The position numbers and the translations under genes were made by a program. Below, in pieces: positions 4,420-63,266 of a stretch of DNA of 64,000 nt (position 1 is the first letter of the stretch; every line of letters begins with the position of its first letter). The DNA is taken from the NCBI GenBank assembly GCA_963697165.1, contig CAVOMX010000009.1:55554-119553 (forward strand), given 5' to 3'. The DNA is from Candidatus Bathyarchaeota archaeon. Lineage in GTDB: Archaea; Thermoproteota; Bathyarchaeia; Bathyarchaeales; Bathyarchaeaceae. The notes beneath the pieces are model-generated. The model did not search any database. It had not been told where the DNA came from and saw nothing but the letters and a program-made list of their open reading frames with translations.

Positions 4420-6925
4420 ATGAGTAGTGACATATCAATTGAAGCTTTTATTCAACATCTTGAAGAATTAAAAAAATTAACCGAATTTGAGAGATTTCGC
4501 AAATTTCTAAGGCTATTTTTAATTGGATTCTTCATAGGTAGAGAAAACAAAAAAAGAATAAAAGTATTAGCCTTAGAACTAAATAATATACTCCAACAAA
4601 AAAGTTGTGATTTGGAAAAACATGTATCAAATTCTTTAGGTATGAGCACATATCTAATTTCATCAGAAAAAAAAGGATTGTTAGATTCAATAGGCGTTTT
4701 AATAAATGGGCTTAAACAATTTTCAAACTCTAAAGTTCCGAATGTCGAATATATTAAAGAAATTGAGGAAAAGCTGACAACACTAAAAGAGTCAGTACTT
4801 GACTACAATAGCTCCTTCATTAGGCAAAGAAAAAGGGATTACCGTTATCTCTGGAGTAATGGGGAGTTTACTCTTGATGAGGAACAAATTACATCAATTG
4901 TAACTGACGATAAACATAATTTGGTGGTAGCTGCTGCAGGTTCAGGCAAAACAGAGTGGTACCAAATCACAAGAATTGCATACATAGTAAAAAGACAACC
5001 TGACTTTAGTCCACAAGAAAGAATTTTGGCAATTGCTTATCAAAACAAAGCTAGTGGTGAAATTGGAAGAAGACTAAAAGATAGATATGAAATTACGAAC
5101 GTTAATGTAAGTACCTTTCACAAGTTAGGTAAAGGTATTTTAGAAGAAGCAAGAAGCAAATATCGCCACTCTGATATAATTGATAATAATAAAAAACGAA
5201 GAACCATAGATAACCTTTTTAGACAAAAAATTGAAACTAACCAAAAATACTACAATTTGTTTCTAAGTTATGTTAAAACTCTCCATGATAAAGAAAAAAA
5301 GGAAACTGGAGAGGCAAACGGTATTTCTCTAGAATACGCTATAAAACAAGCCTATGTATCCATAGATAGAACCCAGGTAAATAGCAGAGCTGAAAAAGAG
5401 ATTATAGACTTCTTTCTGATTCACAAGCTCAATGGAAAAAAAATCATAGTAGAATATGAACCTGATGTGGGTGGATTTAGACCTGATTTTTACTTGCCAC
5501 AATATGATTTATACATTGAACATTGGGCTTTAAATAAAAATGGAGAAGTACCAGAATGGTTCAATCAATCCTCTGATGAATATAAGAAATCAATGGATAT
5601 GAAAAGGACATGGTTTAAAGCTCACAATAAATTATTTGTGGAAACCTTTACACACGAGTATAAGAAGAATAAGTCTGACAATTTTATTGAATTATTGAAG
5701 AAAAGAGTCATAGATGCACTAGAAACTAGAAGCAATCAAGATTTTGAATTTAGTCTTAAAAGTTATGATGAAATTGTTGAAATTGCCTGGAACTCTTATC
5801 TGTACTCCAGTAGATGATTTAATTAACTTCATAACATCTGCAAAAACCTATGGTTTGTCTCCAATAAACGTAAAGGGAAGACTAGAGAAGAGAAAATGGA
5901 GTGCTAAACAGATAGCTTTTGGGAATCTTGTTTTGCCAATATTTACAGAATATGAAGAGTTATTGCACTTGGAAGATAAAATCGATTTTGAGGATATGAT
6001 AAATAAAGCAACAGCTGAATTAGAGAACAATCAGAACTTGCGTGCTAATGTGTATGACCATATTCTAATTGATGAATATCAAGATATTAGTGCGCAAAGA
6101 TACAACCTAATCAAAGTCATGATGGAAAGAAATCCTAATTGTAAACTATTTTGTGTTGGAGATGACTGGCAAAGTATCATGGGTTTTTCAGGCTCTAACA
6201 TAAATTATTTTGTAAGGTTTGCAGAATATTTTGAAGACCCAGCAATAACCATAATCTCAACTAACTATCGAAGTAACCGTACAATTGTTGATGCAGGTGC
6301 AGATTTGATAAAGGACAATACAAGTTGTCAGGTACAAAAACCAACTAAAGCAAATAACAGTCAAACTAAATCAATTAAAGTGCTTAGGTCTCCTCACAAG
6401 AAAGATTATGAATATAAATATCACCAGCAAATTGCTGAGGACTGTATAAATCGCATAGTTGAATATCTTGAAAATGGTTATGCACCAACAGATATACTTG
6501 TGCTCACAAGATGCATGCGAACTAGGACCCGATTTGGATACAGATACCTACCAACAATTCAGATAATCAAAGAATTGGCAGAAGTAAACAATTTAGATGT
6601 AATTCACCAAAATTGGGAGAGTCCAAGAGGCATTAGATTACTTACTGCACATAGCAGCAAGGGTTTAGAAGCAAAAGTAGTTTTTATTATTAATGGTACC
6701 AAGGATATTTTTGGTTTCCCATGTGAAATAGAAGATTCTAATATTTATGAGCTAGCAAGAACAAACTATCCGCCTCAAGATAATCTAGAGGAAGAACGAA
6801 GGCTATTCTATGTAGCAATGACTCGTGCAAAGGATGAACTTTATATTTACACTTGGGAACCAGCAATGAGTAATTTTCTAACTGAAATTGAAGAGCATAC
6901 TAAAGAAATCCGACTAAATTACTGA
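4420..6925 (+). CDS. UvrD/helicase IV (HelD-like) SF1 DNA helicase with inserted PD-(D/E)xK-like domain; frameshift near 5800
   Basis: Motifs: Walker A AAAGSGKT, VSTFHKLG, ILIDEYQD, VGDDWQSI, NYRS, TAHSSKGLE, EERRLFYVAMTRAK. The insert reads RPDFYLPQYDLYIEHW. Confidence 0.9.
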
Positions 6926-7903: not shown

Positions 7904-8167
7904 ATAGCAAGAAACAAAAAGAACCATAAGCAGAAAAAATGATGAAGTTGGAAACCAAACGTTGATAATTACAGAAACAAATCACATTCAAAGACTTCCT
8001 AACAGAACAGATTTGATGAACATAGAACCTACGTTTTTGATGATGTTTATTCTATAAAATTATTAATATTCACCACAAATGTTATCTAAAGGTATATTTG
8101 ATAACGTAATCGGGGGAGAGATTACTTTCTGTAATTTTCCTTTCAAAAAAGATAGAATGGAGGTGAA

Positions 8168-8623
8168 GTGAATTTGAAGTCTCGTTCTGTGAATATTGCT
8201 TGGAAAATACTGATGATTCCTAACCTTGTTTTTGTAGTCTTTGGTCTTGCATTTGTGTTAATTCCAGATGCCATTTTGGGTAGTGGCTTTGAATTGTATA
8301 CTGGTCAAACTTGGAGCAATCTTGTTTCCACAAGTCCTGAAATCACTGATTTCATTTTGTTAACTGCAGGCAGAATGTTTGGTGTTCATATTCTTGTTCT
8401 CACAACTCTAGCCATCGCTATAACCCTTAAAGGTTTTAGAAATGGAGAAAGCTGGTCATGGTATGCCTTTATTGCAATCAGTTTTGGTATGATTTTTGAC
8501 ACAGTTGCGGTATTTATCATGGGGGAAATACCTGTTGTAGTGATAGACATAATCATGCTATTGCTCATGTACATAGCACTAGGAATTTCTGCAAAGGATA
8601 TGCTCAGTAAAAAATCCACCTGA
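8168..8623 (+). CDS. hypothetical membrane protein (about 4 TM helices)
   Basis: 151-aa hydrophobic ORF with a GGAGGTGA Shine-Dalgarno immediately upstream and a T-rich tract downstream. Confidence 0.8.
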   Translation: MNLKSRSVNIAWKILMIPNLVFVVFGLAFVLIPDAILGSGFELYTGQTWSNLVSTSPEITDFILLTAGRMFGVHILVLTTLAIAITLKGFRNGESWSWYAFIAISFGMIFDTVAVFIMGEIPVVVIDIIMLLLMYIALGISAKDMLSKKST

Positions 8624-8754
8624 GCATGCTACCTTCTCTAAAACCCAAACTCCTCTTTTTTTCTTAATGAAACCCAATAACATTAGGTTATTATGTGTAC
8701 AAAGTTGGATGATGCAAAATCATATTCAAAGACTTCCCAACAGAACGTAATTAA

Positions 8755-9319
8755 TAATCACAAAGCTTTAATGTATATTCCAGCGTATTATAATTGCTGA
8801 GCCATCAAGGGGACAAATCAAAACATACCTCTAGCTCAAGCGTTTTTGAACATAAAATTTCATTATTTTGTAAGATAGATATGGATTGTTTTTTAGTAAA
8901 GTTTATTTTCTTATATTTCATTTATGATGAAGAGTAGTATCCCAATCTGAACTGGTTCTATCTCCCCCTGATGACTCAGTTTCATTATGATTGGGATACT
9001 GCTTTCCTTCTCAACATTACATCTTTGTTGATAATAGAACATTCTTTTATAACATTTCTAAACCTTAACCACAAATATTATTACGGTAAATACCTGATAA
9101 AACAATTGGGGGAGTCCACAAATCCAATTCTGGGTTAGTCATTGTAACGGTTAATTATCTGTTAGAAACACTACATTCTGAAGTCTGTCACTAACTTTGG
9201 TGGCACACAACCACTTTTCAACTCAAACGAAACAAAACTCAGTTCTCTGCTTCAGAGACCAGAAGCAAACGGAGACACTCTCTAATCAGAGTTAATAAAG
9301 GAAGAAGGGAGGTGAAAGA
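8755..9319 (+). repeat. conserved ~560-bp non-coding leader, copy A
   Basis: Aligns by eye along its whole length with the reverse complement of 45956-46498, e.g. the shared blocks aatcacaaagctttaatgtatattccagcgtattataattgctgagccatca and caactcaaacgaaacaaaactcagttctctgcttcag. Confidence 0.95.
8924..8990 (+). ncRNA. box C/D-like RNA inside leader copy A
   Basis: Box C ATGATGA 8924-8930, D' CTGA 8947-8950, C' CTGATGA 8968-8974, D-like ATGA 8987-8990. The same layout is conserved in copy B. Confidence 0.5.
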
Positions 9320-9808
9320 ATGAATATGAAAATTTTAGGTGTTTTCGTTAGTTTGTTTACTTTAGCTTTGTTAACGATTCCAGTAATGGCTGCACCAGCA
9401 ACAAAAATTGAAGGGGTTACATTGACTAGAGTCACTACACCACCCGTTCAGGATCCTGGCTTTCCACGGTTGGTAAGTCATGATACCATATCACATGGAA
9501 GAGGCACAACTACAGGTACAGCTACTCTAACCATAGGACAAGACATTCATGATGGAGATTGGGATAGTGAATGGATTTCCGTGGTTAATTTGAAAAAAGA
9601 TCCAGTTGAGATGGTAATTAGCGCTACGGTCAAATTGACTTTCACAGGAGGCACGTTTGAGGGTACGAGCCATAGAAAGATAATAGGGTACCCACCTGGA
9701 CCTAGTTCAATTATCGAAACCCATATGGTACTTCAGGGTACTGGAGATTTTAGGGGACAAACACTAAAACATTCAGGTGGTACTTACTATCTAATAATGC
9801 CCAAATAA
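9320..9808 (+). CDS. secreted beta-rich hypothetical protein
   Basis: Signal peptide MNMKILGVFVSLFTLALLTIPVMA, Gly/Thr-rich beta strands (GGTFEG, GTGDFRG), GGAGGTGA SD. Confidence 0.8.
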   Translation: MNMKILGVFVSLFTLALLTIPVMAAPATKIEGVTLTRVTTPPVQDPGFPRLVSHDTISHGRGTTTGTATLTIGQDIHDGDWDSEWISVVNLKKDPVEMVISATVKLTFTGGTFEGTSHRKIIGYPPGPSSIIETHMVLQGTGDFRGQTLKHSGGTYYLIMPK

Positions 9809-9918
9809 CCAAAATAAAGAACCGTAACACCACATTTCCTCTTTTTTCTATCCAGAAACAGTAACATCAGATTTTATTGGTTTGTGGGTAAATCGAATTT
9901 TCTAAACAGTGCATTTTT

Positions 9919-10032
9919 GCAGTTAACTAAGTCAATGTATACTTATCAAAGAAATCTCCTTCTGGTATACTATTAACAGAAACTTTATTTTCCCACGAAG
10001 AGCCTCAGGCAACCTCTTCGTGAAAAGCTTCT
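9919..10032 (+). repeat. island repeat site (Z-Y-hairpin-X modules)
   Basis: gcagttaactaagtcaatgtatac...gtatactattaacagaaactttattttcccacgaagag-cctcaggcaac-ctcttcgtgaaaagcttc, with a perfect 9-bp stem at 9994-10002/10014-10022. Confidence 0.9.
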
Positions 10033-45358: not shown

Positions 45359-45955
45359 TCATGGAGTTGGCCAACCAATTACAGTGCCTATCCTAAACGG
45401 ACCAGTAGGCGGACCTGTTCCAGCCTCTCCAGAAAGCTTTACTTTATATCCATCGATTTCGCCATGACCAACAAAAATGCCTTTAGTGTAGAACTCTGCA
45501 GGGTTGAAAGCATTGTATAGGACTTCAACTGCTAATGTTTCAATATAGCCTCTTCCTTCAATCTCCCACAATTCACGGACTTTGATTGTTACATCACCAC
45601 TATGGTAGAACATATTCATGTCATACGAACAAGAATATGTTATTTCGTCATCATCGAACGTTTCTTCAAAAGGACCCCCTTCATCTACAACAATAAGGAA
45701 ACCTGTTGAATCGATGCCCCATCCCATGTCTCGCATATGTAAAGAATTAGGGTCTCCGCCTAATTCTGGCGGTAGTTCTTTGGTTGGGCTAAACCATACT
45801 CTTCCCACGTCAACTTCGCCTACAGAAGCTCCGACTATTAATCTGATATTCAAACTTTCCTGTCCTTTTCCAGCACTTACTGTTCCAACCATTGGAGTTA
45901 ATACCATTGCTAAAGCTAATATCATTACTACTGTTGATAGAATTTTCTTTTTCAT
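45359..45955 (-). CDS. secreted beta-rich hypothetical protein
   Basis: Signal peptide MKKKILSTVVMILALAMVLTPMVGTVSA, GGAGGTGA SD; lies downstream of leader copy B. Confidence 0.8.
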   Translation of the reverse strand: MKKKILSTVVMILALAMVLTPMVGTVSAGKGQESLNIRLIVGASVGEVDVGRVWFSPTKELPPELGGDPNSLHMRDMGWGIDSTGFLIVVDEGGPFEETFDDDEITYSCSYDMNMFYHSGDVTIKVRELWEIEGRGYIETLAVEVLYNAFNPAEFYTKGIFVGHGEIDGYKVKLSGEAGTGPPTGPFRIGTVIGWPTP

Positions 45956-46498
45956 TTTTTCACCTCCCCTATGTTCTTTTATTAAATCTGATTAGGGAGT
46001 GTCTCCGTTTGCTTCTAGTCCCTGAAGCAGAGAACTGAGTTTTGTTTCGTTTGAGTTGAAAGTTTGTGTGCAACAAGTTGGTGACAGACTTCAGAATATT
46101 GTGTGTACGGAATTAATACTAACAATGACTAACCCAGAATTTGTTTATGTTTTATCAGGTATTTATCGTAATACATATTTGTGGTTAAGGTTTACAAATG
46201 TTATAGAAGAAAGTTCTATCGATAATAATGAACCAATATTTAGAAAGGAAGCAGTATCCCAATCATAACAAAACTAAGCCATCAGGGGGAGATAGAGCTA
46301 GTTTCAGATTGGGATACTACTCTTCATCACAGAGGAAAATATTAAAATTTAAACTTTGCTAACAAACAATCCATATCAGTCTTACTTAATGAAAAGTTTA
46401 CATTCAAAAACGCTTGAGCTAAGGGCATGTTTTGAATGTTCCCCTGATGGCTCAGCAATTATAATACGCTGGAATATACATTAAAGCTTTGTGATTAT
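45956..46498 (-). repeat. conserved ~540-bp non-coding leader, copy B
   Basis: Inverted homologue of 8755-9319. Confidence 0.95.
46263..46330 (-). ncRNA. box C/D-like RNA inside leader copy B
   Basis: Minus strand: GTGATGA-agagtagtatcccaat-CTGA ... CTGATGG-cttagttttgtt-ATGA. Confidence 0.45.
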
Positions 46499-46698
46499 AT
46501 TTTCAATTTGATTGAAAATGAAATTATTGAATACAGTGACATTTAATTTACATATTTTATAGTAGTCTTTGAGTGTAATTTTATGTGAATTATTACTGAA
46601 TTGAGATTATACTTGACTAGTATCCAACTTGGTACATAGATTAATCTAATGTTAATGTTTTCTGAAAAAAATGAAGAGATTATGAAAAAGATTTGGTT

Positions 46699-46902
46699 TT
46701 ATCTTTCTACAGTAAAAGCGATTTTAACATTAACATTGTACTCTACAATTTTGGCATTTGTTACTTTGGCGGTGCATCGTTTAACGTGGACTCCCTTGAT
46801 GTTCTTAATTGTCTTCGCTGCTTCTGTCACTGCATTCTGAGCTGCTTCACTCCAACTATTAGGTGAAGACCCTATCAGTTCAATTATTTTAACTACCGTC
46901 AT
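46699..46902 (-). CDS. dodecin family flavin-binding protein
   Basis: VVKIIELIGSSPNSWSEAAQNAVTEAAKTIKNI...EYNVNVKIAF. Confidence 0.93.
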   Translation of the reverse strand: MTVVKIIELIGSSPNSWSEAAQNAVTEAAKTIKNIKGVHVKRCTAKVTNAKIVEYNVNVKIAFTVER

Positions 46903-47206: not shown

Positions 47207-49695
47207 ATGCAAATTTCAATAAACAAAACAAAATTAACATCAACAATCATTTTGGCAATTTTAATAACATCTGCCTTTTCGTTAATAGCAAATATTCCAG
47301 TGCAGGCTCAAATTGGTATTCCACAGCCAACAGAAAGTGCAGGTTACATCAGCATCGCACCAACACTAATCGGAGTTGGCCAAACAGCAACTGTAAACCT
47401 GTGGATTTTTCCTTTACCTGAAAACTATTTTTATGAGCCATTATTTGGTGGCTACACCGGAATAACGGTGACGTTCACAAAACCTGACGGAACAAAAGAC
47501 ACGTTCATGCCAGTAGACGGCACAGGTCAATTTGGTCCAGGACAAACAAGTCACTTGGCACTTTATTCTTCTATTATGCGCCTGATATGGCGGGTGATTG
47601 GAGTGTATCATGTCACGATGCCTGCACAGACCATAACCGACGCAACTGGAACCGTACTTTATCAAGCATGCACTAGTGAACCTGCCTACTTTACTGTTCA
47701 ACTGAAGAAAATTGGCTGGTTTGCTTAATGGTTATCCGTGGGCACCACTGCCGGACCCAAACGCTTTCTGGGACTACCCAATAAACGGCAACAACAGAGA
47801 ATGGAGCCAAATCTCAGGCGACTGGCTTCAGCCATGGTATAGTGCTTTCACAGCGGTTTTCGGTACCACTTTTAATACATGGCAGCCTTATGGTCCAGGA
47901 CCTAACACTCCGCACATAGTTTGGAGCAACCGGTGGCCCCGGGAGGCCTTGTAGGCGGAGATTATGGTAGCGTAAGTTACGCTCAGCTCGTACTTGGCGT
48001 TGATGTAGGCACTGTAGTCATGGAGGGCAAAGTATTCATTAATGTTCCCAATTCCGGCGACAGTTTAAATGCATAGATGTGGTCACTGGAGAAGTGTTGT
48101 ATACCGGCGCCTGGAACAATTACCAATGGTATCCACTTACCTGGAAACGTATATGTCCAAGCGTTTGTGACCCGACAGTAGTTACTCGCCAGTTCTTAGG
48201 GATCAACATCCAATGCGTACCTGTTTGGGACCTCCGGGACCACATGGAATTACTATCATCCCTCACAGGGGCTCTAGTTAGGTCAATCTCTAACGCGACC
48301 CACATGGTGTTGGGTTCTTTAACGGTGCTCGACTTGTTGACGGTACCAATTTTGCCTATGGAACACAATGGATGGGCAGTTGTATCGTTGGGATCTGACG
48401 AGAGTTGTCAATAACAATTGGCCGACAGGAATCACATGGAAAGTCCAATCCTACACTATTAGGAGGTAATGAGCCCAGCTATCTTTGGTGGTACTCCATT
48501 CTCTTCGCAGTATCCTCGGATGTGTCTACTCTTGTGTAAGGACCATTAACCAGTTCTGGGGTTTCAGTGCAAATGACGGTACCTTGCTATGGAACCTTAC
48601 TGTGACGTATCCGATCACTGCTAACGAGGTATTCTCTTTATAGGGCGTAGAGGACTTTATTGTCTTTAATCCAGTTGATGCAACATGGCACTGCTACTCC
48701 ATGCTTACTGGCGATTATTTATGGGAAAGCCCCAGCTTTGCCGACTCTCCGTGGGCTACAACATGGAGCGTTTATAGCATTGGACCAATGACTACGAAAA
48801 CTTGTATCTTACAGTTCCCTGACGGCACAATGACCGCTTATAGTTAGAAACGGGACAAGAACTATGGCGTTGTGAGCCTATATCTCTCGACTGAGTACAC
48901 CCACTAATGTAGTGCCCTACAGTTCTGGCATGGCGATGATGGGTGGTAAAATCTATCGGATATGCAGGCTATTCCAAGGATATCAAATCAACCCGTTCCA
49001 AGACTCGCAATGATGGTATGTGTTGACGCTTCTACCGGAGAATTCATCTGGACTTTAAATGGTGGAGTACGCCCCAGTGGCTACTTCAAGTGGTTACGTC
49101 ATAGGTTTAGGTGCGTACGATGAAAAACTGTATTGCATAGGCAAAGGTCCAACCGAAACAACTGTAATGGCATCACCAAAGGTCTCTGCACATGGATCAA
49201 GTGTATTGATTGAAGGTTCAGTTCGTGATATGTCTCCTGCCACCCAAGAATACGCGTCTCAAGTACGGTTCCCGAATGGAGTTCCTGCTGTTGCCGATGA
49301 GGACATGAACGAGTTCATGGACTACTTGTATATGCAAAACGCAACGTTGTTGAACAATCCGCCAACTCCTGATGGTGTTCCAGTGAAACTATTTGTGGTC
49401 AAACCAGATGGCACTGAAGAATGGATGACTACTGTTACTTCGGATTCGTATGGCAACTATAAGTACGATTATGTTCCGTCAGCAGAGGGAGTTTACAGTG
49501 TAATAGCCAAGTTTGAGGGGTCTGAAACATATTGGCCTTCAAGCACAGAAACTTCCTTTATTGCAACACCAGCTGCAGCACCAGGTGGCGTAATCGAACC
49601 CGAACAACCACTAATCAGCACAGACATGGCAATAATAATTGCAGTTATCGCAGTTGCAATCATAGCAGCAGTCGCATACGTGTTTCTCAGAAGAA
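47207..49695 (+). CDS. PQQ-like beta-propeller surface protein (copy 2; multiple frameshifts; stop codon cut off at the junction)
   Basis: Same signal peptide as copy 1, then NNREWSQISGDWL, LYCIGKGP, VPAVADEDMNEFMDYLYMQ, GSETYWPS and the TM anchor IIAAVAYVFLRRK. Confidence 0.88.
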
Positions 49696-49737
49696 AGCAA
49701 TCAGTGTTGTGTCCTCTGCTTGGCTCAGCGTATTGCT
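49696..49737 (+). other. Oxford Nanopore ligation adapter remnant at a chimeric junction
   Basis: AGCAAT (read-end adapter start) is followed by TCCTCTGCTTGGCTCAG---CGTATTGCT, compared with the adapter TCCTGTACTTCGTTCAGTTACGTATTGCT. Base composition and taxon change abruptly at this point. Confidence 0.85.
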
Positions 49738-50559
49738 TGGCGGTGCCGTTCACCCCGGTGGGGGGTCAGCGCCTGCTCGTGCACCCCTCGCGCACCGGCG
49801 ACGCACGCGAGGCGGTGCTCGGCGCGCTCGCCAGGGGCCTGCAGGAGGCGTCGCGGGGCTGCTTCGGGATGCACGTGCTGTTCGACACCGCCGAAGAGGT
49901 CGACTGGCTCGATGCCCACGGCCTGTTCCCCCGCCTGCAGTACCAGTTCCACTGGAACAACGACGGCTACGACACGTTCGAGGACTGGCTGAAGTCGTTC
50001 TCGAGCGACAAGCGCAACAAGATCCGTCGGGGAGCGCAAGGAGCTCCGGGGGCTGACCCTCGAGGCGATCGTCGATCCCAATCCGGCCATCCTCGACGCG
50101 CTCCACGACTTCCACACCCTGACCGCCTCGCAGTTCGGCCCCTGGGGCCACGTCTACCTGTCGAAGGCCAGCCTTCCGCCAGCTGGGCGAGACGTGGGGC
50201 CACCGCCTGCACGCCGTGGTGGCCCGGGACGGATCGCGGATCGTGGGGGGCGCGTTCAACGTGCTCAAGGGGGATCGCCTGTACGGCCGCTACTGGGGCT
50301 GCAGCGACGACATCCGGTTCCTGCACTTCGAGGTCTGCTACTACAAGGCCATCGAGGACTGCATCGAGCGCAGGATCGCGGTGTTCGAGCCCGGCCACGG
50401 CGGCGGCCAGAAGTACCGCCGGGGCTTCGTGCCCACCATCACCCACTCGAACCACCGCCTCGCCGACGACCGGCTCAACGATGCGCTGCGGCGGTATACC
50501 GAGGAGGAGGCCGCCGAGGTGAGGATCAGGCCGGCGTGCTCACCCAGCGGATGTCGTGA
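49738..50559 (+). CDS. FemAB-like GNAT (DUF482) protein, 5'-truncated and frameshifted (bacterial)
   Basis: Motifs AVPFTPV, HVLF, QFHWNNDGYDTFEDWL, LYGRYWG, LHFEVCYY, FEPG. Confidence 0.9.
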
Positions 50560-50879
50560 TGGCCCCGCCGGAAGCGCGCACGGTGCCGCCGCGGGAGTGG
50601 ATGCTCGGCGTAGTGCTGCTGCTCATCGCGTGCTACTCCACGTTCGCGGTCCTCGACTCGGTCCTCGGCTACCCGGCCGGGGTCGGCATGGTGCGCACGA
50701 TCGGCTACCGGCTGCTGCTCGTGGCGGCGGGCTGCTGCGTGCGGCCAATCGGGCTGGGGGCGGCGGTGGTGGCCGCGGCGCTGCTGTGGTTGGGGCTCGA
50801 CGTGCTCGCCTGGCTCGACGTGTTCGACGTGTACACGGCGCTGCAGGGCGGCACCGGCTTCGTGTACTTCGAGTTCTGA
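50559..50879 (+). CDS. hypothetical membrane protein
   Basis: About 106-aa hydrophobic ORF with GC3-biased codons, overlapping the upstream stop. Confidence 0.7.
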   Translation: MAPPEARTVPPREWMLGVVLLLIACYSTFAVLDSVLGYPAGVGMVRTIGYRLLLVAAGCCVRPIGLGAAVVAAALLWLGLDVLAWLDVFDVYTALQGGTGFVYFEF

Positions 50880-50884
50880 CCGCC

Positions 50885-51679
50885 ATGCACGTCGAGCCGT
50901 TCACTGCCGACGATCTGGAGGCGCTGCACCCGCTGCTGAACGTGTCCGCCGGGACAATCGTCTCGCTGGATGACGAGCGCGCTCGTATGGCGGCGCTACA
51001 GCCGGACCACTGGCTGCTCGCGCGCGACGACGGGCGCCCGCGGGGGTTCGTCCGGGAGCTGCCCCGGCCCGAGGGGGGATACCGCGGCGAGGCGCACGCC
51101 GTCGACGGCCCCGAGCGGCTGGACGTGCTGCGGCGGCTGGTCGCGGCGTTCCTGGCCCGGCGCCCGCCCGGGCCGCTGCGGTTCGTCGTCGCGCTGGAGG
51201 AATCCGTTCGCGCGGGTCTCGAGGATCTGGCGTTCCGGGCCGAGCGGTTCCTCTACTCGCATACGATCTCCGCCTCGCGGCGTTTCCGGACACGATCGGC
51301 GTCCGCAGTGCGGCGGACAGCGACACCGACGCCGTCCAGCGCGTGCTGCGCCCCGACGGCGAGCCCATCGCCGGGCTGCAGGACGCCGTCGCGCAGCACG
51401 TCGTGCTGGTGACCGTCGGCGCCGTCCGCGGCGCCGTCCGCCTCGTGCAGCGCGGCGAACACGCCGAGGTGATCGACCTGGCCGTGGATCCCGAGTCCCG
51501 CCGATCAGGGGATCGGCCAGCGGCTGATCCGCGCGGCCTGCCGGCCAGGCGAAGCGCGAGGGCGTGACCTACGTGACGGCGCTGGTGTCGGTGTCAACCG
51601 CAAAGCCCGGGGGCGCTACGAGCGGTTCGGCTTCCTCCACCGGCCCGAGCGCGATCAGCTGTGGCTCGACCTCCGCTGA
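50885..51679 (+). CDS. GNAT family acetyltransferase (frameshifted)
   Basis: MHVEPFTADDLEAL...; EVIDLAVDPESR.SG; YERFGF. Confidence 0.7.
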
Positions 51680-51683
51680 TACC

Positions 51684-52540
51684 TCACCCCCGGGGGCCGG
51701 GCACCGACAGCACGCGATGGGTTACCGCGCACCACGCCGACGGCGCTTGCCCGGAGACACGCCGGTGTCCACCTGCGCCAGGCGCAGCGCGCGCCGGCGG
51801 CGCACGCGGGGGAGCACCGTGTGGCCCGAGACGTGCGTGCGCTCGTACTCGTCGGGGGCCTCCGTCGGCCGCTGGCGCCCCCACAGGGCCTGGGCGTTGG
51901 CCTTCGTGCGCCGGCGGAACATCTCGTCCGAGTCGAAATCCGCGAGCCCCTCGGCGGTCGTCAGCGCGTGCGTCACCACCACCGTCTCCGAGCGGAACAC
52001 CATCGGCAGCGCGCAAAGGAACCGCAAATCGTCGAGGTCCGCCACAGTCGCGGGCTCGGCCGGAGACGAGGTGCATAGTTCAGCATCGGCGCCTCGCCCT
52101 GGGCGAGCCACATCAGCGCGCGAAACCAGCAGAACGACTCGCGCGGCAGCCAACTTCACGACGCGTCTCGCTGTCGCTCCCACGCCTCGCCGTACGGCAC
52201 GACGGCGGGATGCAGCGCGCAGTCCGCCGCCGACAGCAGTTTTTGCGGCGCGAACGCCTCAATCGTCGCGAGCATCATCTCCTCGTGGTTTCCACGAGGA
52301 TCGCGGCGTGGGTGCCGGCGGCGACCCCCTCCCGCAGGTGGCGCACGACGCCGGCCGAATCGGGGCCGCGATCGACGATGTCCCCGACGAACACCACCAG
52401 CGGCTCGAGGCCCTCTCGGGCCGCGTCGCGCGCGATCCGGTCCTCGAGGCGCTTGAAGGTGCCGAGGCAGCCGTGTACGTCGCCGACGATGGCGTGGAGC
52501 CTGGCGCCGGCGGACTCGTCCGGTCGTTTCTCACTCCAGG
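51684..52540 (-). CDS. metallophosphoesterase (PrpA/ApaH-like Ser/Thr protein phosphatase), frameshifted
   Basis: Motifs GDVHGC, GDIVDRGPDS, a GNHE-like segment, VSGHT, VDTG. Confidence 0.85.
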
Positions 52541-54118
52541 AAGGCCTCGGCCAGCGACTGGGCCGCCCGCCACCCCCGTCGGCCTCCACCGGCAACTCGT
52601 ACACGTTGAGCACGGCGCCGCTGCGCAAGCGCACACCACCGACGCGTCCGGGTCGGGTTCCGCGAACACGTACCTCGGCGCCTTCAGGGTCCAGGTCGCG
52701 CCGGCGCGGGGGCGCTTCCCGAGGAAGGCCGCGTAGATCAGCCAGCCGATGCGCAGGCTGCATCACCAGCTCGCGCAGCGCTTGCCCGCGGCACGCCCTT
52801 CCTGATCGCCGCGACCGGCGCATCCGCCGGGCCGCGCGTGATGTCGTCGCCGTGGACGGGGATCCATCGGGCTTCCTCGCCGGGGCGCTGCACCAGCGGG
52901 TCGCGCGGCCGCGCGTGGCGGAGGAGGCACGCGGGGGGGGCGTCCCTGGAGTCGCCCGGCAACGGACCCACCTCGACCTCCCCGCGGACGCTCCAGACCG
53001 AACCGGGGGGAGTTGTCGAACACCCACGGGGCGAGGCGCGTGTAGCCGAGGAGGCCACCGGTCGTGGGGCAGGGGGCCGCCCCGTCAATCGTGGCCTTCG
53101 TCCCGCATCAGGCCCACCAGTGACCCCCACCGCCGCGAGCGACAACGCCGCCGTCCCGAGGAAGCCGACGAGCGAGATGAAGAGCACCATGCGACCGAGC
53201 AGCCTGGTGCCGGAAGGCCCCGTGTGCCCGGTGGCCCCCGAGGGAATCGCGGCGGGCCACGGGGAGCTGGTGATGGGCCCCGCAGAGATGGGGATCTGTG
53301 GATCGGTGCGGAACTCGGGCTTCGTCCGCGAGCAGCTCCAACACCTCGCGCCAGTCCTGCGGGCGGTCGTCGGGATCCACCGCCAGGCAGCACTGAATCG
53401 TGGTGGCGAGGCGCTCGGGACCGAGTCGGGGAGGGGCGCGTCCCTGCCAGTGGCGTAGTGAACACCAGGCGCTCGATAGTTCCTCGGGAACGCCCGCTCG
53501 TGCGTCACGAGCCGGTACAGGATGCAGCCGAGGGAGTGGATGTCCACGCGCCGATCCACCGTGGCGGCGTTCCGGATCTACTGAGCGCATGTCGTCGATG
53601 TCATCAGGGCAAGCCCTGGGTGTGCCCAGCGCTGCGCTGGGAAGCTGACCGGCCGATGACTACCTGGGAAATGCCGGCCCCTGTGCGCCAAGCAGCACGT
53701 TGGCGGGCTTGAGAATCGCGGTCGATCACGCCAGCATCGTGCGCAGCGCCCACACGGCGGCGAATACCGCAGGACCAGGCGCTCCGCCGCATCGAGATAG
53801 ACCGAACGCCTCAGCCAGCGGGAGAGATCGGGGCCGTCAGCATATCCATCACCAGCGCCGGCATGCCCCGGACCTCGAACGCGTCGCTGACTGCGACCAC
53901 GTTCGGGTGCCGGATCTTCGCCTGGACGCGCCCCTCGTCGATCAGGCGCTGCGCAAGCGCCGGGCCGGTGAACTTCAGGACCTTCAGCGCGTGCTCGGTC
54001 TGGAGCGCGGTGTGGCGGACGGGTAGACATCCGCGATCCCGCCCGGCTCCGATCACCGGGCGGATCACGGTGTACCGCTACGATCGCTTCTCCCGCGGTC
54101 AGCACGACTGGATGCCAT
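52531..54118 (-). CDS. Hanks-type Ser/Thr protein kinase with TM segment, frameshifted
   Basis: Motifs HALKVL, EGRVQAKIRHPNVV, an RD..KPANVLL-like loop, DIHSLGCILY, and TM segment MVLFISLVGFLGTAALSLAAV. Confidence 0.85.
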
Positions 54119-54280
54119 GTTCCCCACCGCGTTCTATGAAGGACCGCGCACCGATTGCGCCCGAATCGTTGTTCGGAATGCCACACGGCGCGGCCCGGGC
54201 GGAGTCCCCCGAGGGTTCCGGGAAGCACGGCACGCGTGTTGCAATTAACTTCTGGCCGTCCACCCCCGCACGGAGTTCCG

Positions 54281-55043
54281 GTGCGTACCGCAGCCGACGT
54301 GATAACGCCGATCCGCTGTTCGCCGAGCGGGCGACGGCTTCGCCGCCTGCGCCGAGCGGATGCGTCGTCTCCACGTCCGCCACCTGCTGGTCGCGGTGCC
54401 GGGCGGCGTGGGCGACCGTCCCAGGAAGCCGCCATCCGAGGCCACGCCGCCGGCGGAGACCTCGCGGCCGCGGTCGTCCCGATCCCGACGGCTCCGCCGG
54501 ATCTGCCTCTGGAGAGCCTGCTGTTGCAGCTCCTGAGCGCCAGCGGGGACCTCGTGGCGGTCGTCGGGGAGGACGGATCTCCGATCGGCGTGTTCACCGA
54601 GTACGACGCGATGCGCCTCGCTGCGGGGTACTTCGACAACGTCCCCGCTCGCCGATCGCCACGAGCGGGATGGGTCGCCGAGCCCGAGTCGACGCTGCAG
54701 CGGGCGCGGTTCGCGCTGAAGCACCACGGGATCGCCACCTCCCCGTCGTGTACGAGGGTCGGTTCGTCGGGATCGCGGACCACCGGGATCTCGAGGAGGT
54801 CGACGCGGCGTCCGATCGGTTCCTCGCCGAGATCGCCAGCCCCCCGACCGCGACCGTGGTCGGCGACACGTCGGTGCGGGAGGCCGCGGAGCGCCCTGGC
54901 GATTCAGAAGGTGGGGTGCCTGCCCGTCATCGGCCCGGACAACGATCTGCGGGCGATGCTGCACCGCCACCGACGTGTTGCGCGCGCTGATCGGCGAGGT
55001 CCGCCGGCGAGCGCCGGCATCGCTCACCGGGCGCGGCGCTTGA
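54281..55043 (+). CDS. CBS-domain protein, frameshifted
   Basis: VVGEDGSPIGVFTEYD, RHLPVVYEGRFVGI, KVGCLPVI. Confidence 0.75.
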
Positions 55044-55844
55044 GCACAGCCAGGCGCTCGGTGCCGAGCGCGCTGACGAACAGACGCTCCTTGCGGTTCG
55101 CGCAGGCTGCTGGCTCCAGTCCACGAGCCCGCCATCCGAGAGGTTCACCCACGCCTCGTAATCTGAACGTCCAGAACGAACCGCCGGCAGCGGTAGTACC
55201 GCCCGGCGCGGCACGACCGTCCCGGCGCCCCGCAGCACCGGCATCGCCAGCAGCGGCTCGATCCAGCTCCGGTGGGCCGGATCGACGTGCAGGGTCAGGC
55301 GGTGAGCGTCGAGCGGCAGCCCGGCGCCTCGCAGTCCGTCGACGACGGCGAGGTGTGTCCCAGGTGCTCGCGCAGCACGTCGCCCTCGAGGCGGCGCCCG
55401 CCCGGATCGCGCCCGCCGTCACCCACGCGAACATCCGGAAGTGCTGCCAGCTCGCGGCCCCTCGAACCGCTGCCAGCCGCGGCGTGCGGTGGCTGGTGCA
55501 CAGCCGCACCACGTCCGCTCCCGTGCGCCGGCGGTCGGCGGCGATCGGCGCGAGCGCCGGTTCGTCGGATCGGAGACCACCTCCAGGGAGCGGATCGCGC
55601 TGCACACCTTGTCCTGGCTCGCCAGCGCCACGGCGCTCGCCGTGCCCGGCGGCGCTACCGGGCTAGTCCCACCGCATCGAAGCTGTCGGGTATCTGCTCG
55701 AAGATCCGGGCGTCCACCACGCCAGCGCGCGCTGATCGACCACCGCGGGGCGCACGAATGGATCGCGGCGGTGCTGGGCGAGCAGATCGGTGGGCCGTCG
55801 GGCGGCGGCCTGAGGCCGGACACCTCCAGCGACGGGTGGCCCGG

Positions 55845-56578
55845 TCACTGCCGGACAGCGAGGACAGCCGATCCGCGAGATCGGGCACCCCGGCCGTGCG
55901 CTGCGCGCGCTCGACCGCGGCGGTCCGGTCGGACACCGGCACCTCGAAGGAGCAACCGCGGTCCACGCACACCAGGGCACGATCCTCCGAGAGCGCCCGG
56001 AACGACGGGGGGCGCGGCGCCGCAGTGCGGGCAGGCGTGCGCGCCGGGGTTCGGCTGGTGCCTCGGCGTGGGAGGCGTCCACGGCGGCACGGCACCGGCA
56101 GCCGACAGGGTCCGGTGTCCGGCACGGAAACCGGCTTCGGCAGTTCCTCTCCATCGGGCACGTCGCGGATCCGGATGTCGAGACCGTCGGGACGCGGGAG
56201 CCAGCCACACCGCGCACCGGCTGCGGCGGTACACCCCGTTCCCGGCGCCCCCGGGTACGACGCCGACGAGGGGCTCCACGACCTCGGGCGCACCCATCGC
56301 GCTCTCAGGTCGCCGACTCACCGCGGGTGTCGCCCGCACGACGTAGCGGTGCGGCTCGCGCCGCGGCCGGTGGAGGAACTGGACCTCGAACCGCCCCGGC
56401 GCCACCCACACGTCGCAGGGGGCGCGCGTCAGGAGGTGGACCACCTGGCCGCACCCACGTCCAGGGGCGGCCGGGCGATCCCGGCCAGCACGTCGAGGAT
56501 TGTCGCGCCGTGCTCGTCTACCCCCCGCACCTCCGGGGCCAGCGGAGATCCGTACCGGATCCACGGCCCGAGGCCATG
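55845..56578 (-). CDS. hypothetical protein (frameshifted)
   Basis: GC3-biased fragments such as TRAPCDVWVAPGRFEVQFLH and EDRALVCVDRGCSFEVPV. Confidence 0.4.
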
Positions 56579-56649
56579 TTCTCTAAAATTGCAGATTTGC
56601 CATCAAGTCGGATCGAGACCTTCCGGTGCTCGCAACGTATGGAGGTCCG

Positions 56650-58307
56650 TTGTCAAGGACGTTGTTGATGTCGAACCTGACTCGAGCGGCACGCCGTGCG
56701 TCGGGTCAGCCCCGCGGTGGGATCGCTCGCCGGGATCTCATCCGAATGGGCCTGTGTGCGGGGATCGCGCCGGGTGGCCGCGGGCTGTCGGCTCGAGGTC
56801 TTCGGAGGCCGCACGATCGTTCTTCGCGCCGGGATCGCGGCCTGCACTGCGCGTGGCGGCTCGTGCAGGGCGACGTGGGAACTCACCGTCGTCTACGAGG
56901 CCCAGGACCGGGTGGGCGGGCGGATGTTCACGGGCCGCAACCTGCTCGCGGGGGTCGCCAGATGAGTTTGGGGGCGAGTTTTCATCGACTTGGGCCACCT
57001 CACCCTGCACGAGCTGGCCGACGAGTTCTCGATCCCCCTCGACGATCGCTTCGCCGCCGAGCGGCCAGGGCATGGTGCGGGACACCTGGTCGGTCGACGG
57101 CGCCGCGGTGTCCGAGGACAACATCGTCGCACAGTTTGCCGACGTGGCTCCCCTTCATCGCGGCCGACTTCGACGCCGCCAGTCGAGCGACGCCGACTAC
57201 GCGCTCCTCGACCAGAGCACCCTCGCCGACTACCTGGAGCGCGTGCCCCCACGAGCGCGTACCCCCGAGCTCCACGCGGTGCTGACGAGCGCCTACCGGG
57301 GGGGTACGGGCTCGAGACCAGCGCCCAGTCGGCGCTGAACCTCGTGTACCTCATCGACGCCTTCGCCCAATCCGTTCCGAAACTGGAGCACGACGGCAGC
57401 CACGCCCACGGCGGCAACGGCACCGCCACCGCCCTGTACGGCGCCGTCGGCGCACCGGGCCGCGTCGTGTTCGACACCGGACTGGTGGCGATCCGGGGAT
57501 CACCTCGTCGGTGGGTACGAGGTGGAGATGAAGGGGCCGGGGGAGCGGTTCATCGACTACGCCGATCACGTGGTCCTCGCCATCCCGTTCACGAAGCTCC
57601 GTCAGGTCACCGTCGACGTCTTCGACTGCGATCCCGACAAGCAAGCGATCATCGACACGCTCGGCTATGGGACGAACGCCAAGGTGATCGGCGGCTTCGC
57701 CCGCCGCCCGTGGTGGGACGACCACAACGCCACGGGCTCGTCCACGACGGATTTGCCCCTCCGGCAGACCTGGGACGCCTCCGTCGGCGAGGGGGCCTCC
57801 GGGGCGTGCTCACCAACTTCCTCGGCGGCGAGCAGGGCGTCGCCTCGGCGCGCGGGCAGCACGCTCGAGTGGTTCCCGCTCGCTGCTCCCCGATTTGGAG
57901 CGATCTCGCCCGGGACCGACGCCGCGTTCGACGGGACCGCCGTCCGGAGTGCACTGGGCCGTCGTTCGAGTGGAGCCTCGGCAGCTACGCCTGCTACACC
58001 CCCGGAACAGTGGTCGTTCTACGGCCAGGAGGGCCGACGGGTCGGCAACCTCCACTTCTGCGGCGAGCACACCTCCCTCGACTTCCAGGGCTGGATGGAG
58101 GGCGCCGCCGGAGAGCGGCGCGCTGGTGGCCGCGGAGGTGATCGACCACCACGGCACCGACTGTCGCGTCGCCACGAGGGGATGTTCGCCGCCAAGCTCC
58201 TCGCCCCCCAGGCCTGCTACCACGGCGACAAGCTGGACCCGGATATGCGCCCTCCTCGCCGCAGGGCGCTGTCCGCGCGGCTGCGCGAGCTCTCGCCCCG
58301 GGGATGA
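56650..58307 (+). CDS. flavin monoamine oxidase / amino oxidase family FAD oxidoreductase, possible Tat signal; frameshifted
   Basis: Motifs RRDLI, AGIA.LHCAWRL, VYEAQDRVGGRMFT, VLAIPF, LHFCGEHTSLDFQGWMEGA. Confidence 0.88.
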
Positions 58308-58383
58308 TCGGGCCGACGGCGGCCGCCCCCGGCGCTCGGAGTGCTCGGTGGTCGCGGGACCTCGCCCCGGGTACTCCGCAGAC

Positions 58384-58837
58384 ATGGACCTCCCCGATCC
58401 CACCGCCGACGGCGCCGAGACCCTCGCGCCCCGCAGCCTGAAGAGACGCGCGTCACGCCGCGGGGCGCATCGTTCGAGCTGACGGGGCCCCCGCGGTTCG
58501 CGGGTCTGCAGCCCGGCAGCGCACGACCGTCTCCGTCCACGCGCGCGGGATCACCCTCGAAGACAGCGACGGCTCCACCGAGGTGGCCTTCGAGGAGCTC
58601 GACCGCTGCGAGCTCGCGTCCCTGCCCGGCGAGGGCTGGTTCCTCGTGCTGCGCTGCGGCGGGCGGGCCATGGCCAGCGCTCCTGTGCGGGACCGACCCG
58701 ATACGGCCTGGCTCGCCCGCTACCTCGACGCCCAGATTGGCCGCCACCGCGCCACCACCGACGATCCCCACGCCGCGCGGGCGGAGCTCGATCGCCTGGA
58801 GGGGCTGCTCGGGAGCACGAAGCCCCGCGAGCCCTGA
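58384..58837 (+). CDS. hypothetical protein (frameshifted)
   Basis: GC3-biased fragments MDLPDPTADG... and VAFEELDRCEL...WLARYLDAQI. Confidence 0.45.
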
Positions 58838-58939
58838 CGTTGGATCGTCCCGCGGATTTGGGTTGACCGGCTTGCTCATCGGGCTCCCGAGGGCCGTCCT
58901 CGACCCTCGCCCTGATCCGGATACATCCGGGCCCACCCA

Positions 58940-59566
58940 CTACGGGCGATTCAGCAGCCCCCGCAGGTGCTGATCGATGACCGCGGCGGCCACCGCGTCG
59001 AGATCGAGCTCGGCATCGTCGCGCACAACGTAGCGCAGACCATCTCCCGCAGGGCGCCGACCACGGCCACCGCGCAGACATCGGCGTCGAGCTGCCGGAC
59101 GGTCCCCAACGACGCGCCGAGCCGCAGGGAGTTGGCGACGAACCCGTACAGCTGGTCGTCGAACGCGGCGAGCCGCTCGTCGACGGCGGCGTCCAGCCCC
59201 ACCGCCTCGCGGAAGATGATGCGGGTGAGGGGCCGGTTGTTGACGGTGCTCAGCAGTCGCACGACGGTCCGGTGCAGCTGCTCTCGCATCGGCGCCGCCT
59301 GGGGCGAATGTCCATCCCGACGACGTTCGAACGCAGCGTGCGCAGGAGGTCGTCCAGCAGCTCGGGGAAGATGGCCTCCTTGCTGTCGAAGTACAGGTAG
59401 AACGTGCCGCGCGCGACGCCGGCGGCCTTGACGAGTCGCGTGACACTGGTCCGGTGGTAGCCGCGCTCCGGCGAACACCGTCAACGCGCGTCGTCGATTC
59501 GGGCCCCGGCGCGCCTCGCGGTTCAGCTGGCCCCGGCGCGACGCGCCATCGTGTAGGGTCGCTCAT
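58940..59566 (-). CDS. TetR/AcrR family transcriptional regulator, frameshifted
   Basis: GYH.TSV...KAAGVARGTFYLYFDSKEAIF HTH, read across indels. Confidence 0.85.
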   Translation of the reverse strand: MSDPTRWRVAPGPAEPRGAPGPESTTRVDGVRRSAATTGPVSRDSSRPPASRAARSTCTSTARRPSSPSCWTTSCARCVRTSSGWTFAPGGADARAAAPDRRATAEHRQQPAPHPHHLPRGGGAGRRRRRAARRVRRPAVRVRRQLPAARRVVGDRPAARRRCLRGGRGRRPAGDGLRYVVRDDAELDLDAVAAAVIDQHLRGLLNRP

Positions 59567-60355
59567 CGGGGGCTCGCGCAGGCGTCGATGCGGCCGGCGA
59601 TCACCGCGCGCACCTGGTCGGCGAGCGCTGGCGATCTGCTCGTCGGTCGCCCCGCCGTCGGGGTCGACGGGTCGTACGTACACGATCACCTCGCGCCCGG
59701 GCGGATCAACCACGTTCCCTGCGCGGTTGATCTCGGTACATCCCGGTCACCGAGACGGGCACGATCGGGAGTCGACGAGATCCCGCGCGATCCGGAAGAC
59801 CCGGTCCGGAACGGGCCCACGCGCCGGTCGGTCGTCCGGTGCCCCTCCGGGAAGGCCAGGATCGAGTGGCCGCGCGCGATCTCCCGCTGGAAGCGCTCCT
59901 GCAGCTCGTCGGCGCGTCTGGCCGTCGCGCCCCGGCGCACGGGGATGGTGCCCCGCGGGCCTTCATGAACCAGCCGTAGACCGGGATCTTGAAGTGCGCT
60001 CGCAGCTCCAGGCCCTGCTTGAAGTGCGGCGTGGCCGTGTAGAGCGTGACGTGGTCGAAGCAGGTTGACGTGGTTCGCGCGAAGAGGTACGGCCGGTTCG
60101 GATCGACGCCGGGTGCGACGACCGCCCTCCACGCGCGCGCCGGTGATCGCGCACCTGCCCGCGGTAGACAGCCGCGCAGGAACTCGGTGCGATGGCGACG
60201 CAGCACGGTCCGATGAGACATCGCGACCAGCCCGCGAGCATCGGCGGCCGCCAGCGAGCCGGCTGCCCCAGAGTGGCAGCGCGAAGCGCTGGCCGCGCTC
60301 ATCCCGATCGCGCGCCGGACTCGACGGGGACGCTAGCGCTCTGATCGTCGCTCAT
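59563..60355 (-). CDS. lysophospholipid acyltransferase (PlsC-like), frameshifted
   Basis: Motifs ANHVNL.DH, ILAFPEGHRT, GPFRTG, LPIVPVSV. Confidence 0.85.
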
Positions 60356-63017: not shown

Positions 63018-63266
63018 AGACGCCGCCGGATCACGGCCGCGAGGCCCGACAGCGTGCGCACGTCCTGCAGCTCGTAGTCGGGGATCTCGATCCGGAATGC
63101 GTCCTCGAGATCGGTGAGGAGGTCGAGCGCCTGGAGGCTGTCGATTCCGAGTCCTTCGAAGAGATCGGCCTCGGCGGCAGCGGCCGGCCACGCTCGCCGA
63201 AGCGAGGACGGACAGCCGGGCGAACGGTTCGATTCGGAACGCAGCGCCGTCCACGGCATCCTCCAT
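63014..63266 (-). CDS. acyl carrier protein
   Basis: Phosphopantetheine motif DLFEGLGIDSLQALDLLTDLEDAFRIEIPD. Confidence 0.88.

What the first reader, a model, noticed from the sequence alone, without database searches (positions are those of the whole stretch)
8755..9319. Duplicated ~560-nt leader containing a box C/D-like RNA flanked by its own antisense segments, upstream of secreted proteins
Seen: this non-coding block recurs inverted at 45956-46498 and is far better conserved than the secreted proteins it precedes (9320-9808 and 45359-45955). It begins with a BRE/TATA-like AAAGCTTTAAT and ends in a GGAGGTGA SD. Both copies carry C (RTGATGA), an identical 16-nt AGAGTAGTATCCCAAT, D' (CTGA), C' (CTGATGA or CTGATGG) and D (ATGA). 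Directly after box D, 8990-9003 (ATTGGGATACTGCT) is complementary to the D' guide and is followed by a pyrimidine tract. At the predicted 5' end, 8796-8813 (GCTGAGCCATCAAGGGGA) is complementary to the C' box plus D guide (16 of 18 pairs in copy A, 16 contiguous pairs including G-U in copy B). The two helices are pseudoknotted, and each competes with the C/D fold. Established: archaeal C/D motifs form L7Ae-bound K-turns and guide 2'-O-methylation at N+5. Inference: this could be an undescribed L7Ae/C-D RNP-dependent RNA switch or attenuator, or a self-targeting guide (N+5 points at G8994), controlling a family of secreted proteins.
Basis: partly seen in the sequence, partly recalled or inferred. 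Interest (0 to 1): 0.82.

Follow-up and report, generated by a model that had tools for sequence, protein, structure and literature searches.

The report
Bathyarchaeum anti-ribosome-site hairpin small RNA
The duplicated block is not a box C/D RNA: its core is an uncatalogued ~85-base hairpin kept in all 25 searched genomes of one archaeal genus, and its near-invariant loop is complementary to an extended ribosome-binding site on particular genes, so it is likely a small RNA that would block their translation.

Summary
The duplication is real (82% identity), and so are both complementarities. The C/D reading fails: box C is present in 2 of 42 homologues and box D in 3, and the guides match no rRNA or tRNA. 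The block joins two separable modules. Its core (8925-9010) is an ~85-nt hairpin found in 25 of 25 genomes of the genus (53 copies) and in 0 of 35 other family genomes, with no Rfam hit. Its outer stem covaries, G·U outnumbers A·C 86 to 3 (fixing the strand), and it has its own TATA-like box and pyrimidine tail. The loop can form up to 18 contiguous pairs across an extended Shine-Dalgarno site. That site precedes a NifB/NifX-like gene in 12 of 17 in-genus orthologues and 0 of 12 outside, and secreted-protein genes in genomes where the RNA has multiplied. Best reading: a trans-acting, translation-blocking small RNA (0.62). Expression and pairing are untested, genome-wide site counts do not exceed shuffled probes, and the two window genes are only weak predicted targets.

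The parts
8925..9010 (+). Copy A of the hairpin small RNA (covariance-model extent; true ends not mapped)
   Evidence: Model R1 hit G000:C9:64478-64563, E 1.5e-19 (the model was built with this copy); MFE z -6.38
8933..8947 (+).
   Evidence: 9 of 15 outer-stem pairs show two-sided changes in 42 copies
8959..8973 (+). Near-invariant anti-Shine-Dalgarno apical loop
   Evidence: Invariant columns in A3; opening energy 2.2 kcal/mol in the C22 copy
8989..9003 (+). 3' arm of outer stem
9004..9012 (+). Pyrimidine tail, putative terminator
   Evidence: The 8 nt after the stem are 89% pyrimidine over 42 copies
8895..8909 (+). P2: BRE/TATA-like promoter of the hairpin RNA (predicted)
   Evidence: TTTAW 30-33 nt before the stem in 28 of 42 copies
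8762..8772 (+). P1: BRE/TATA-like promoter upstream of the antisense segment (predicted)
   Evidence: P1 region 92-93% identical in A, B and C25; related in two G019 loci
8796..8813 (+). Segment antisense to the loop and inner stem, at the predicted P1 transcript start
   Evidence: Duplex -25.6 kcal/mol with its own loop; C-G in B versus U-A in C25 at one pair
9060..9078 (+). P3: predicted promoter starting the separate leader module of the secreted-protein gene
   Evidence: Shared with C12:132803-133091, which lacks the hairpin
9307..9315 (+). Shine-Dalgarno of gene A; only a partial match to the loop
   Evidence: Rank 16 of 124, -8.8 kcal/mol
9320..9808 (+). 162-aa protein with signal peptide (judged by eye); predicted beta-rich, no Pfam family
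   Evidence: no PDB fold match at E<=0.001
8109..8122 (+). Loop-complementary site in the leader of the membrane-protein gene at 8168-8623
   Evidence: Rank 4 of 124, -14.5 kcal/mol
46243..46329 (-). Copy B of the hairpin small RNA (loop 46280-46294)
   Evidence: R1 hit G000:C9:101796-101882, E 2.2e-22; z -6.21
46346..46360 (-). P2 of copy B (predicted)
46440..46456 (-). Antisense 5' segment of copy B
   Evidence: 16 contiguous pairs, -32.8 kcal/mol
46480..46490 (-). P1 of copy B (predicted)
46175..46193 (-). P3 of copy B (predicted)
45960..45973 (-). Eroded extended Shine-Dalgarno of gene B
   Evidence: Rank 12 of 124, -9.5 kcal/mol
45359..45955 (-). 198-aa protein with signal peptide (judged by eye), no Pfam family

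Best explanation
The core of the block is a genus-wide ~85-nt hairpin that is likely transcribed as a stand-alone small RNA, and its near-invariant C/U-rich loop is predicted to pair in trans across an extended Shine-Dalgarno sequence and so block ribosome loading on specific mRNAs. Shown here: the conservation, the covarying stem, the strand, the complementarity, and the joint presence of RNA and site on a NifB/NifX-like gene. Inferred: transcription from P2, termination at the pyrimidine tail, loop-first pairing followed by unzipping of the weak inner stem, and repression. The likely ancestral target is the NifB/NifX-like gene of a DUF134/DUF5320 cluster. In some lineages the RNA multiplied (3-8 copies) and a family of secreted-protein genes carries the same site. 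The window's copies are such extra copies, each placed between an upstream promoter whose transcript would begin with an antisense segment and an independent leader for a secreted protein.
For: Distribution: 25 of 25 genus genomes, 0 of 35 other family genomes. Structure: 10 of 28 pairs with two-sided changes against 2.7 in shuffles, 0 of 500 shuffles as high, and slid controls 32-48% paired against 95.6%. Strand: G·U 86, A·C 3. Promoter-like TTTAW at a fixed distance in 28 of 42 copies. Target: AGGGGGAGGTG upstream of 12 of 17 in-genus and 0 of 12 out-of-genus PF02579 orthologues; the six bases before the SD follow the loop complement in 10-15 of 16, against 5-10 of 16 for the commonest base further upstream. 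In the complete genome G005 this gene ranks 1 of 146 SD-bearing ORFs (-19.5; mean -3.3, sd 3.3). All 17 in-genus non-hairpin exact CAGGGGGAGGTGA sites lie just before a start codon: 9 NifX-like, 8 of the secreted family. In G000 the top three of 124 are secreted paralogues. The 16S 3' tail does not explain the extension. Two paralogues carry a fully Watson-Crick anti-SD loop.
Against: No expression evidence: one 151-nt RNA-library contig covers the C22 copy, but its flanks and promoter are covered too. Genome-wide counts of complementary sites do not exceed shuffled probes (13 vs 2-16; 16 vs 5-29). G036, of another genus, has two target-type sites but no RNA found (88% complete). The NifX-like gene was not found in 7 of 24 other genus genomes, and 11 of 25 genus genomes have no exact CAGGGGGAGGTGA target. 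The site is eroded or lost in 5 of 17 orthologues, including G000's own (rank 24). The window's two genes rank only 12 and 16. RNA and site may have arisen once, so their joint presence is not independent evidence. No loop-target compensatory change was found for the trans targets. Energies are home-made and ignore loop sterics.
Confidence: 0.62

Rival explanations
1. It is a real RNA, but the loop is held invariant by a protein partner, for instance the small downstream protein with weak eL22 likeness, and the SD matches are secondary.
For: The inner stem and loop are more invariant (7 of 13 pairs never vary) than the ~13-nt NifX pairing requires. The neighbour's lower atlas hit has Ribosomal_L22e on 33% of members at score 0.87, a lead only. 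Many genomes lack an exact target.
Against: The neighbour exists in at least 7 other-genus genomes with no such hairpin within 700 nt upstream, and some in-genus syntenic loci show no such ORF between the hairpin and the HEXXH gene. It does not explain the conserved extension of the NifX SD.
Confidence: 0.15
2. In the window's copies the hairpin works in cis as an attenuator or switch in a long P1 leader: the 5' segment pairs with the loop and changes termination or SD access for the secreted gene.
For: The 5' segment pairs with its own loop in four copies (-25.6 to -32.8 kcal/mol), with C-G/U-A swaps between B and C25 and a matching change in G019 L002.
Against: Two of those four copies (C25, L002) have no credible same-strand gene directly behind them, and the leader with its genes occurs without the hairpin. 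A separate promoter-like P3 precedes the gene. The segment was seen beside only 4 of 53 copies (BLAST-level search). With opening costs the pairing falls to about -11.5 (computed with the C22 hairpin).
Confidence: 0.1
3. It is a small mobile or single-stranded DNA element (MITE- or REP-like) spreading with gene cassettes.
For: 3-8 scattered copies in 7 genomes; mosaic repeated flanking modules in G000.
Against: A single copy in 17 of 25 genomes and a conserved neighbourhood in 22 of 25. The strong G·U over A·C asymmetry means one strand only. Dispersed copies keep a TATA-like box. No target-site duplication is evident by eye in the flanks. No match in viral contigs.
Confidence: 0.08
4. It is a box C/D guide or an L7Ae-dependent switch.
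For: C- and D-like motifs are present in copies A and B.
Against: C in 2 of 42, D in 3 of 42; no rRNA or tRNA target; the guide is buried in a covarying stem; no Rfam snoRNA hit.
Confidence: 0.02

Closest known systems
Methanosarcina mazei sRNA154 (loop 2), sRNA162 and sRNA41 (PMC5867862, passages read; PMC3510493, abstract and outline read)
   Same: Archaeal intergenic sRNAs that mask ribosome-binding sites in trans. sRNA154 is genus-conserved and uses an anti-RBS loop; sRNA41 and sRNA162 hit internal RBSs of polycistronic mRNAs, as the NifX-like site here would be.
   Different: No sequence or Rfam relationship was detected. This is a single short rod in Bathyarchaeia, multiplied in some lineages, with a cis antisense leader in four copies; nothing is experimentally shown.
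Listeria LhrC1-5 (PMC4132741, abstract and outline read)
   Same: Multicopy sRNA whose CU-rich sites bind the mRNA of an envelope protein and impede translation.
   Different: Bacterial, with three CU-rich sites and two-component control; here one apical loop, an archaeal promoter and no homology found.
Archaeal box C/D sRNAs (defining features recalled, not from a call)
   Same: C- and D-like words occur in the two window copies.
   Different: Boxes not conserved, no target, and a continuous stem instead of free guides.

Membership tests
Box C/D sRNA | Conserved box C near the 5' end and box D near the 3' end | tested here: not met
   C 2 of 42, D 3 of 42, both 2 of 42
Box C/D sRNA | Conserved internal D'/C' boxes | tested here: not met
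   D' CTGA 18 of 42, C' TGATGA 2 of 42
Box C/D sRNA | Guide with about 10 or more Watson-Crick pairs to rRNA or tRNA | tested here: not met
   Longest 6-8 nt on 16S/23S (shuffled about 7) and 5-6 nt on the 29 tRNAs found; the tRNA set may be incomplete
Box C/D sRNA | L7Ae binding | not testable with these tools
   Needs EMSA or probing
Any Rfam 15 family | Score at or above the gathering threshold | tested here: not met
   0 hits in the window; the best weak hit overlapping copy A has E 2.1 on the opposite strand, 17.9 vs 60 bits
Trans-acting anti-RBS sRNA (functional class) | Independent gene with promoter and terminator | tested here: inconclusive
   Motifs conserved (28 of 42 TATA-like, 89% pyrimidine tail), but no transcript ends mapped
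Trans-acting anti-RBS sRNA (functional class) | Conserved structure with an accessible seed | tested here: met
   (computational)
Trans-acting anti-RBS sRNA (functional class) | Conserved complementary site over the RBS of unlinked genes | tested here: met
   12 of 17 vs 0 of 12 orthologues; rank 1 of 146 in G005
Trans-acting anti-RBS sRNA (functional class) | Demonstrated pairing and repression | not testable with these tools
   Needs binding, toeprint and reporter assays
MITE / REP-like DNA element | Strand-symmetric terminal inverted repeats with target-site duplication | tested here: not met
   G·U 86 vs A·C 3; no duplication seen by eye in the flanks

The most novel reading that the evidence does not exclude
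A genus-defining archaeal small RNA with a dedicated 'address' (an SD extended by CAUCAGGG) that began as a regulator of one NifB/NifX-like cistron. It then multiplied, in more than one lineage, together with a spreading family of secreted proteins and TrmB-like cassettes that adopted the address. Some copies, as in this window, gained an upstream promoter whose transcript starts with an anti-loop segment and would yield a self-silenced or sponge form: a two-promoter on/off switch for the RNA itself.
Probability: 0.3. Interest if true: 0.82.

Novelty: new variant of a known kind. Interest (0 to 1): 0.66.

Why it matters
Bathyarchaeia are among the most abundant sediment microbes (PMC10477458, passages read), and my literature searches found no regulatory RNA described for them. 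This RNA comes with a predicted conserved target and a sharp genus boundary. A named record (L142, Ca. Bathyarchaeum tardum M17C, kept in enrichment culture per PMC10477458) carries the core, so transcription and pairing can be tested. It would extend RBS-masking regulation beyond Methanosarcina and give an archaeal case of sibling sRNAs expanding with their targets.

Tried and rejected
Rfam at gathering and E-value level: nothing. tRNA scan of the window: none. C/D guide targets in 16S, 23S and tRNA: none above chance. Extended SD as a by-product of the 16S tail: rejected, the tail reads GGATCACCTCCT then ATGTC. Minus-strand decoy showing an SD mimic: rejected by the G·U asymmetry and promoter side. 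Homologues outside the genus: 0 of 35 family genomes; in 36 family and order genomes one E 0.168 hit lies in a coding region and lacks the loop; no such hairpin upstream of the neighbour gene in 7 other-genus loci. Viral contigs: 0. Metatranscriptome runs X1 and X2 (shares 0.09 and 0.07): inconclusive; X2 shows no cover over the hairpin. RNAcofold cannot model loop pairing with the stem kept and was uninformative. Genome-wide complement counting gave no excess over shuffles. Secreted proteins: no Pfam family, atlas hits under 0.9 (DUF3224 0.81, a lead only), model pLDDT 68 with no PDB match. One search (16S-tail pattern across relatives) gave mostly chance matches. One paper search returned nothing.

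Full report
OBSERVATION. They align at 470 of 571 columns, unevenly (56-100% per 50 nt), and their downstream proteins show no significant similarity. The C/D-like words and both complementarities are present. Rfam gives no hit.

THE BLOCK IS A COMPOSITE. In the window's own genome (G000) the 5' half, up to the pyrimidine tract, recurs at C25 with no credible gene directly behind it. The 3' half recurs at C12 in front of two secreted-protein genes with no hairpin. The junction lies near 9011. The 3' module begins with its own promoter-like motif (P3, 9060-9078; predicted).

THE CORE IS A GENUS-WIDE HAIRPIN. A DNA search of 61 genomes matched all 24 other genomes of the genus, mostly over the ~75 nt at 8930-9006. 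The single outside match covers only the SD. A covariance model from 42 copies finds 53 copies at E<1e-6 in 25 of 25 genus genomes: one in 17 genomes, two in one, and 3-8 in seven, with six in G000. It finds none in 35 other family genomes, and only an E 0.168 coding-region hit in a set of 36 family and order genomes. An exact 24-mer scan of 185,579 species genomes gave 28 stretches: 24 titled as Bathyarchaeia (several as Ca. Bathyarchaeum), 3 as one Thermoproteota single-cell genome and 1 as a 5.3-kb contig in an Asgard bin. In 22 of 25 genomes one copy lies upstream of a HEXXH-containing ORF, often followed by a JAB-domain gene and preceded by topoisomerase VI genes or an HTH regulator (the topoisomerase label is recalled from the sequence). 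G000's copy in that setting is C22:83046-83132, so the window's copies are extras.

IT BEHAVES LIKE AN RNA ON THE + STRAND. The structure is a 15-bp outer stem, a weaker bulged inner stem and an apical C-rich loop. 95.6% of cells pair. Ten of 28 pairs show two-sided changes against 2.7 in shuffles (0 of 500 as high), nine of them in the outer stem, and slid controls pair at 32-48%; these controls do not fully remove relatedness. Non-Watson-Crick cells in the outer stem are 86 G·U, 3 A·C and 28 other. TTTAW lies 30-33 nt before the stem in 28 of 42 copies, and the 8 nt after it are 89% pyrimidine. The C/D boxes are not kept: C 2, D' 18, C' 2 and D 3 of 42. The guides match rRNA no better than shuffles.

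THE LOOP MATCHES AN EXTENDED SHINE-DALGARNO. UUUAUCUCCCCCUGAUGG can form 18 contiguous pairs (two G·U) with CCAUCAGGGGGAGGUGAA, which covers the whole SD. Two G000 secreted-protein genes carry this exactly. Across 61 genomes the exact CAGGGGGAGGTGA occurs 19 times in the genus and once outside. Two of the 19 are hairpin paralogues whose loop has become a perfect anti-SD. The other 17, in 14 genomes, all precede start codons: nine of a PF02579 NifB/NifX-like gene in a DUF134/DUF5320 cluster and eight of the secreted family (one with a truncated signal peptide, one a 49-aa stub, one cut by a contig end; signal peptides judged by eye).

THE NIFX-LIKE GENE AS CONSERVED TARGET. 12 of 17 in-genus orthologues and 0 of 12 outside carry AGGGGGAGGTG. 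I left out one in-genus contig that starts inside the gene, three outside hits for which no locus was returned, and second paralogues. Among the 16 with an SD, the six bases before it follow the loop complement in 10-15 sequences, against 5-10 for the commonest base further upstream. With opening energies included, this gene ranks first of 146 SD-bearing ORFs in the complete genome G005. In G000 the first three of 124 are secreted paralogues and the fourth is the window gene at 8168. The 16S tail cannot account for the extension. Six of the seven genomes with three or more copies have secreted-gene targets, and none was found in the other 18. Those six fall on at least three branches of a weak 114-residue tree (G003 has no row), but kin are not independent.

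RESULTS AGAINST. Expression is not shown. Total complementary sites per genome do not exceed shuffled probes. G036, outside the genus, has the site without a detected RNA. Eleven genus genomes have no exact site, and five NifX-like orthologues have eroded or lost it, four of them in multi-copy genomes including G000. The window's own genes are weak targets (ranks 12 and 16). RNA and site may share one origin, and no compensatory change between the loop and a trans target was found.

THE WINDOW'S EXTRA LAYER. Four copies (A, B, C25, G019 L002) have an upstream promoter-like P1 followed at once by a segment antisense to the loop, 166-172 nt before it. One pair is C-G in B, U-A in C25 and mismatched in A. 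The G019 copy changes loop and segment together at the next pair. A related P1 segment heads a leader with no internal hairpin in G019 L049. This suggests (inference) that the segment began as a target site at the 5' end of a leader, and that P1-initiated transcripts could fold back on the loop and be inactive or act as sponges, while P2 makes the active RNA.

COMPARISON AND NOVELTY. It works like M. mazei sRNA154/41/162 and Listeria LhrC but is a member of neither, and it fails the C/D tests. Searches for Bathyarchaeia or Bathyarchaeota with small-RNA terms and for Bathyarchaeum showed no description in their listings (listings and abstract starts only, and subscription papers are not covered). 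PMC10477458 has no occurrence of 'non-coding' in its main text (passages read, supplements not read). Two earlier AI notes describe larger anti-SD rods in other Bathyarchaeia. Sequence look-ups found no look-alike, so I could not tell whether they are related.

VERDICT. A real, uncatalogued structured RNA (about 0.85); acting as an SD-blocking sRNA (0.62); not C/D. Interest 0.66.

Noticed in passing
L056, L059, L063, L068, L118, L127, L128; G000:C19:17500-17805 and C24:145913-146200: A recurring cassette: a TrmB-like gene (PF01978) divergent from a secreted-protein gene with the extended SD, often with a palindrome like GGGTGTACGTACACCC between them and a short TrmB-like gene behind. It looks like a spreading regulatory module, also present outside the genus (G036).
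   Followed up: partly
L061:2895-2981 (G022:C23) and L117 (G008:C37): Orthologous paralogue whose loop has become a perfect Watson-Crick anti-SD (TTTCACCTCCCCCTG); it could target more mRNAs.
   Followed up: partly
L113:2619-2640 (G009:C8): A broken NifX-like paralogue whose SD reads GGAGATGA, a better match to the loop than to 16S.
   Followed up: no
G005:C1:720830 and 1549719: Two tiny ORFs (18-aa lysine-rich; 32-aa with two CxxC) behind TTTAGGGGGAGGTG, candidate small-protein targets.
   Followed up: no
L138 (JAECRX010000012.1, 5,335 bp): A full hairpin copy with TATA-like box on a short contig in a Ca. Sifarchaeum (Asgard) bin; misbinning or transfer not resolved.
   Followed up: no
L044:1728-2078 (G000:C22:83227-83577): The 116-aa neighbour downstream of the syntenic copy has no Pfam hit; one lower atlas cluster carries Ribosomal_L22e on 33% of members (score 0.87, lead only).
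   Followed up: partly
window 8670-8760, 9830-10000, 46500-46700: Further short repeated intergenic modules flank these cassettes and recur on C5, C12, C16, C17, C25 and at window ~300-390.
   Followed up: partly
window 4420-5817 and 5744-6925: A UvrD-like helicase in two overlapping ORFs, possibly frameshifted.
   Followed up: no
window ~49000-64000: Dense overlapping ORFs in all frames and GC-rich stretches, unlike the ~40% GC genome; foreign DNA or a chimeric contig end. Composition not profiled.
   Followed up: no
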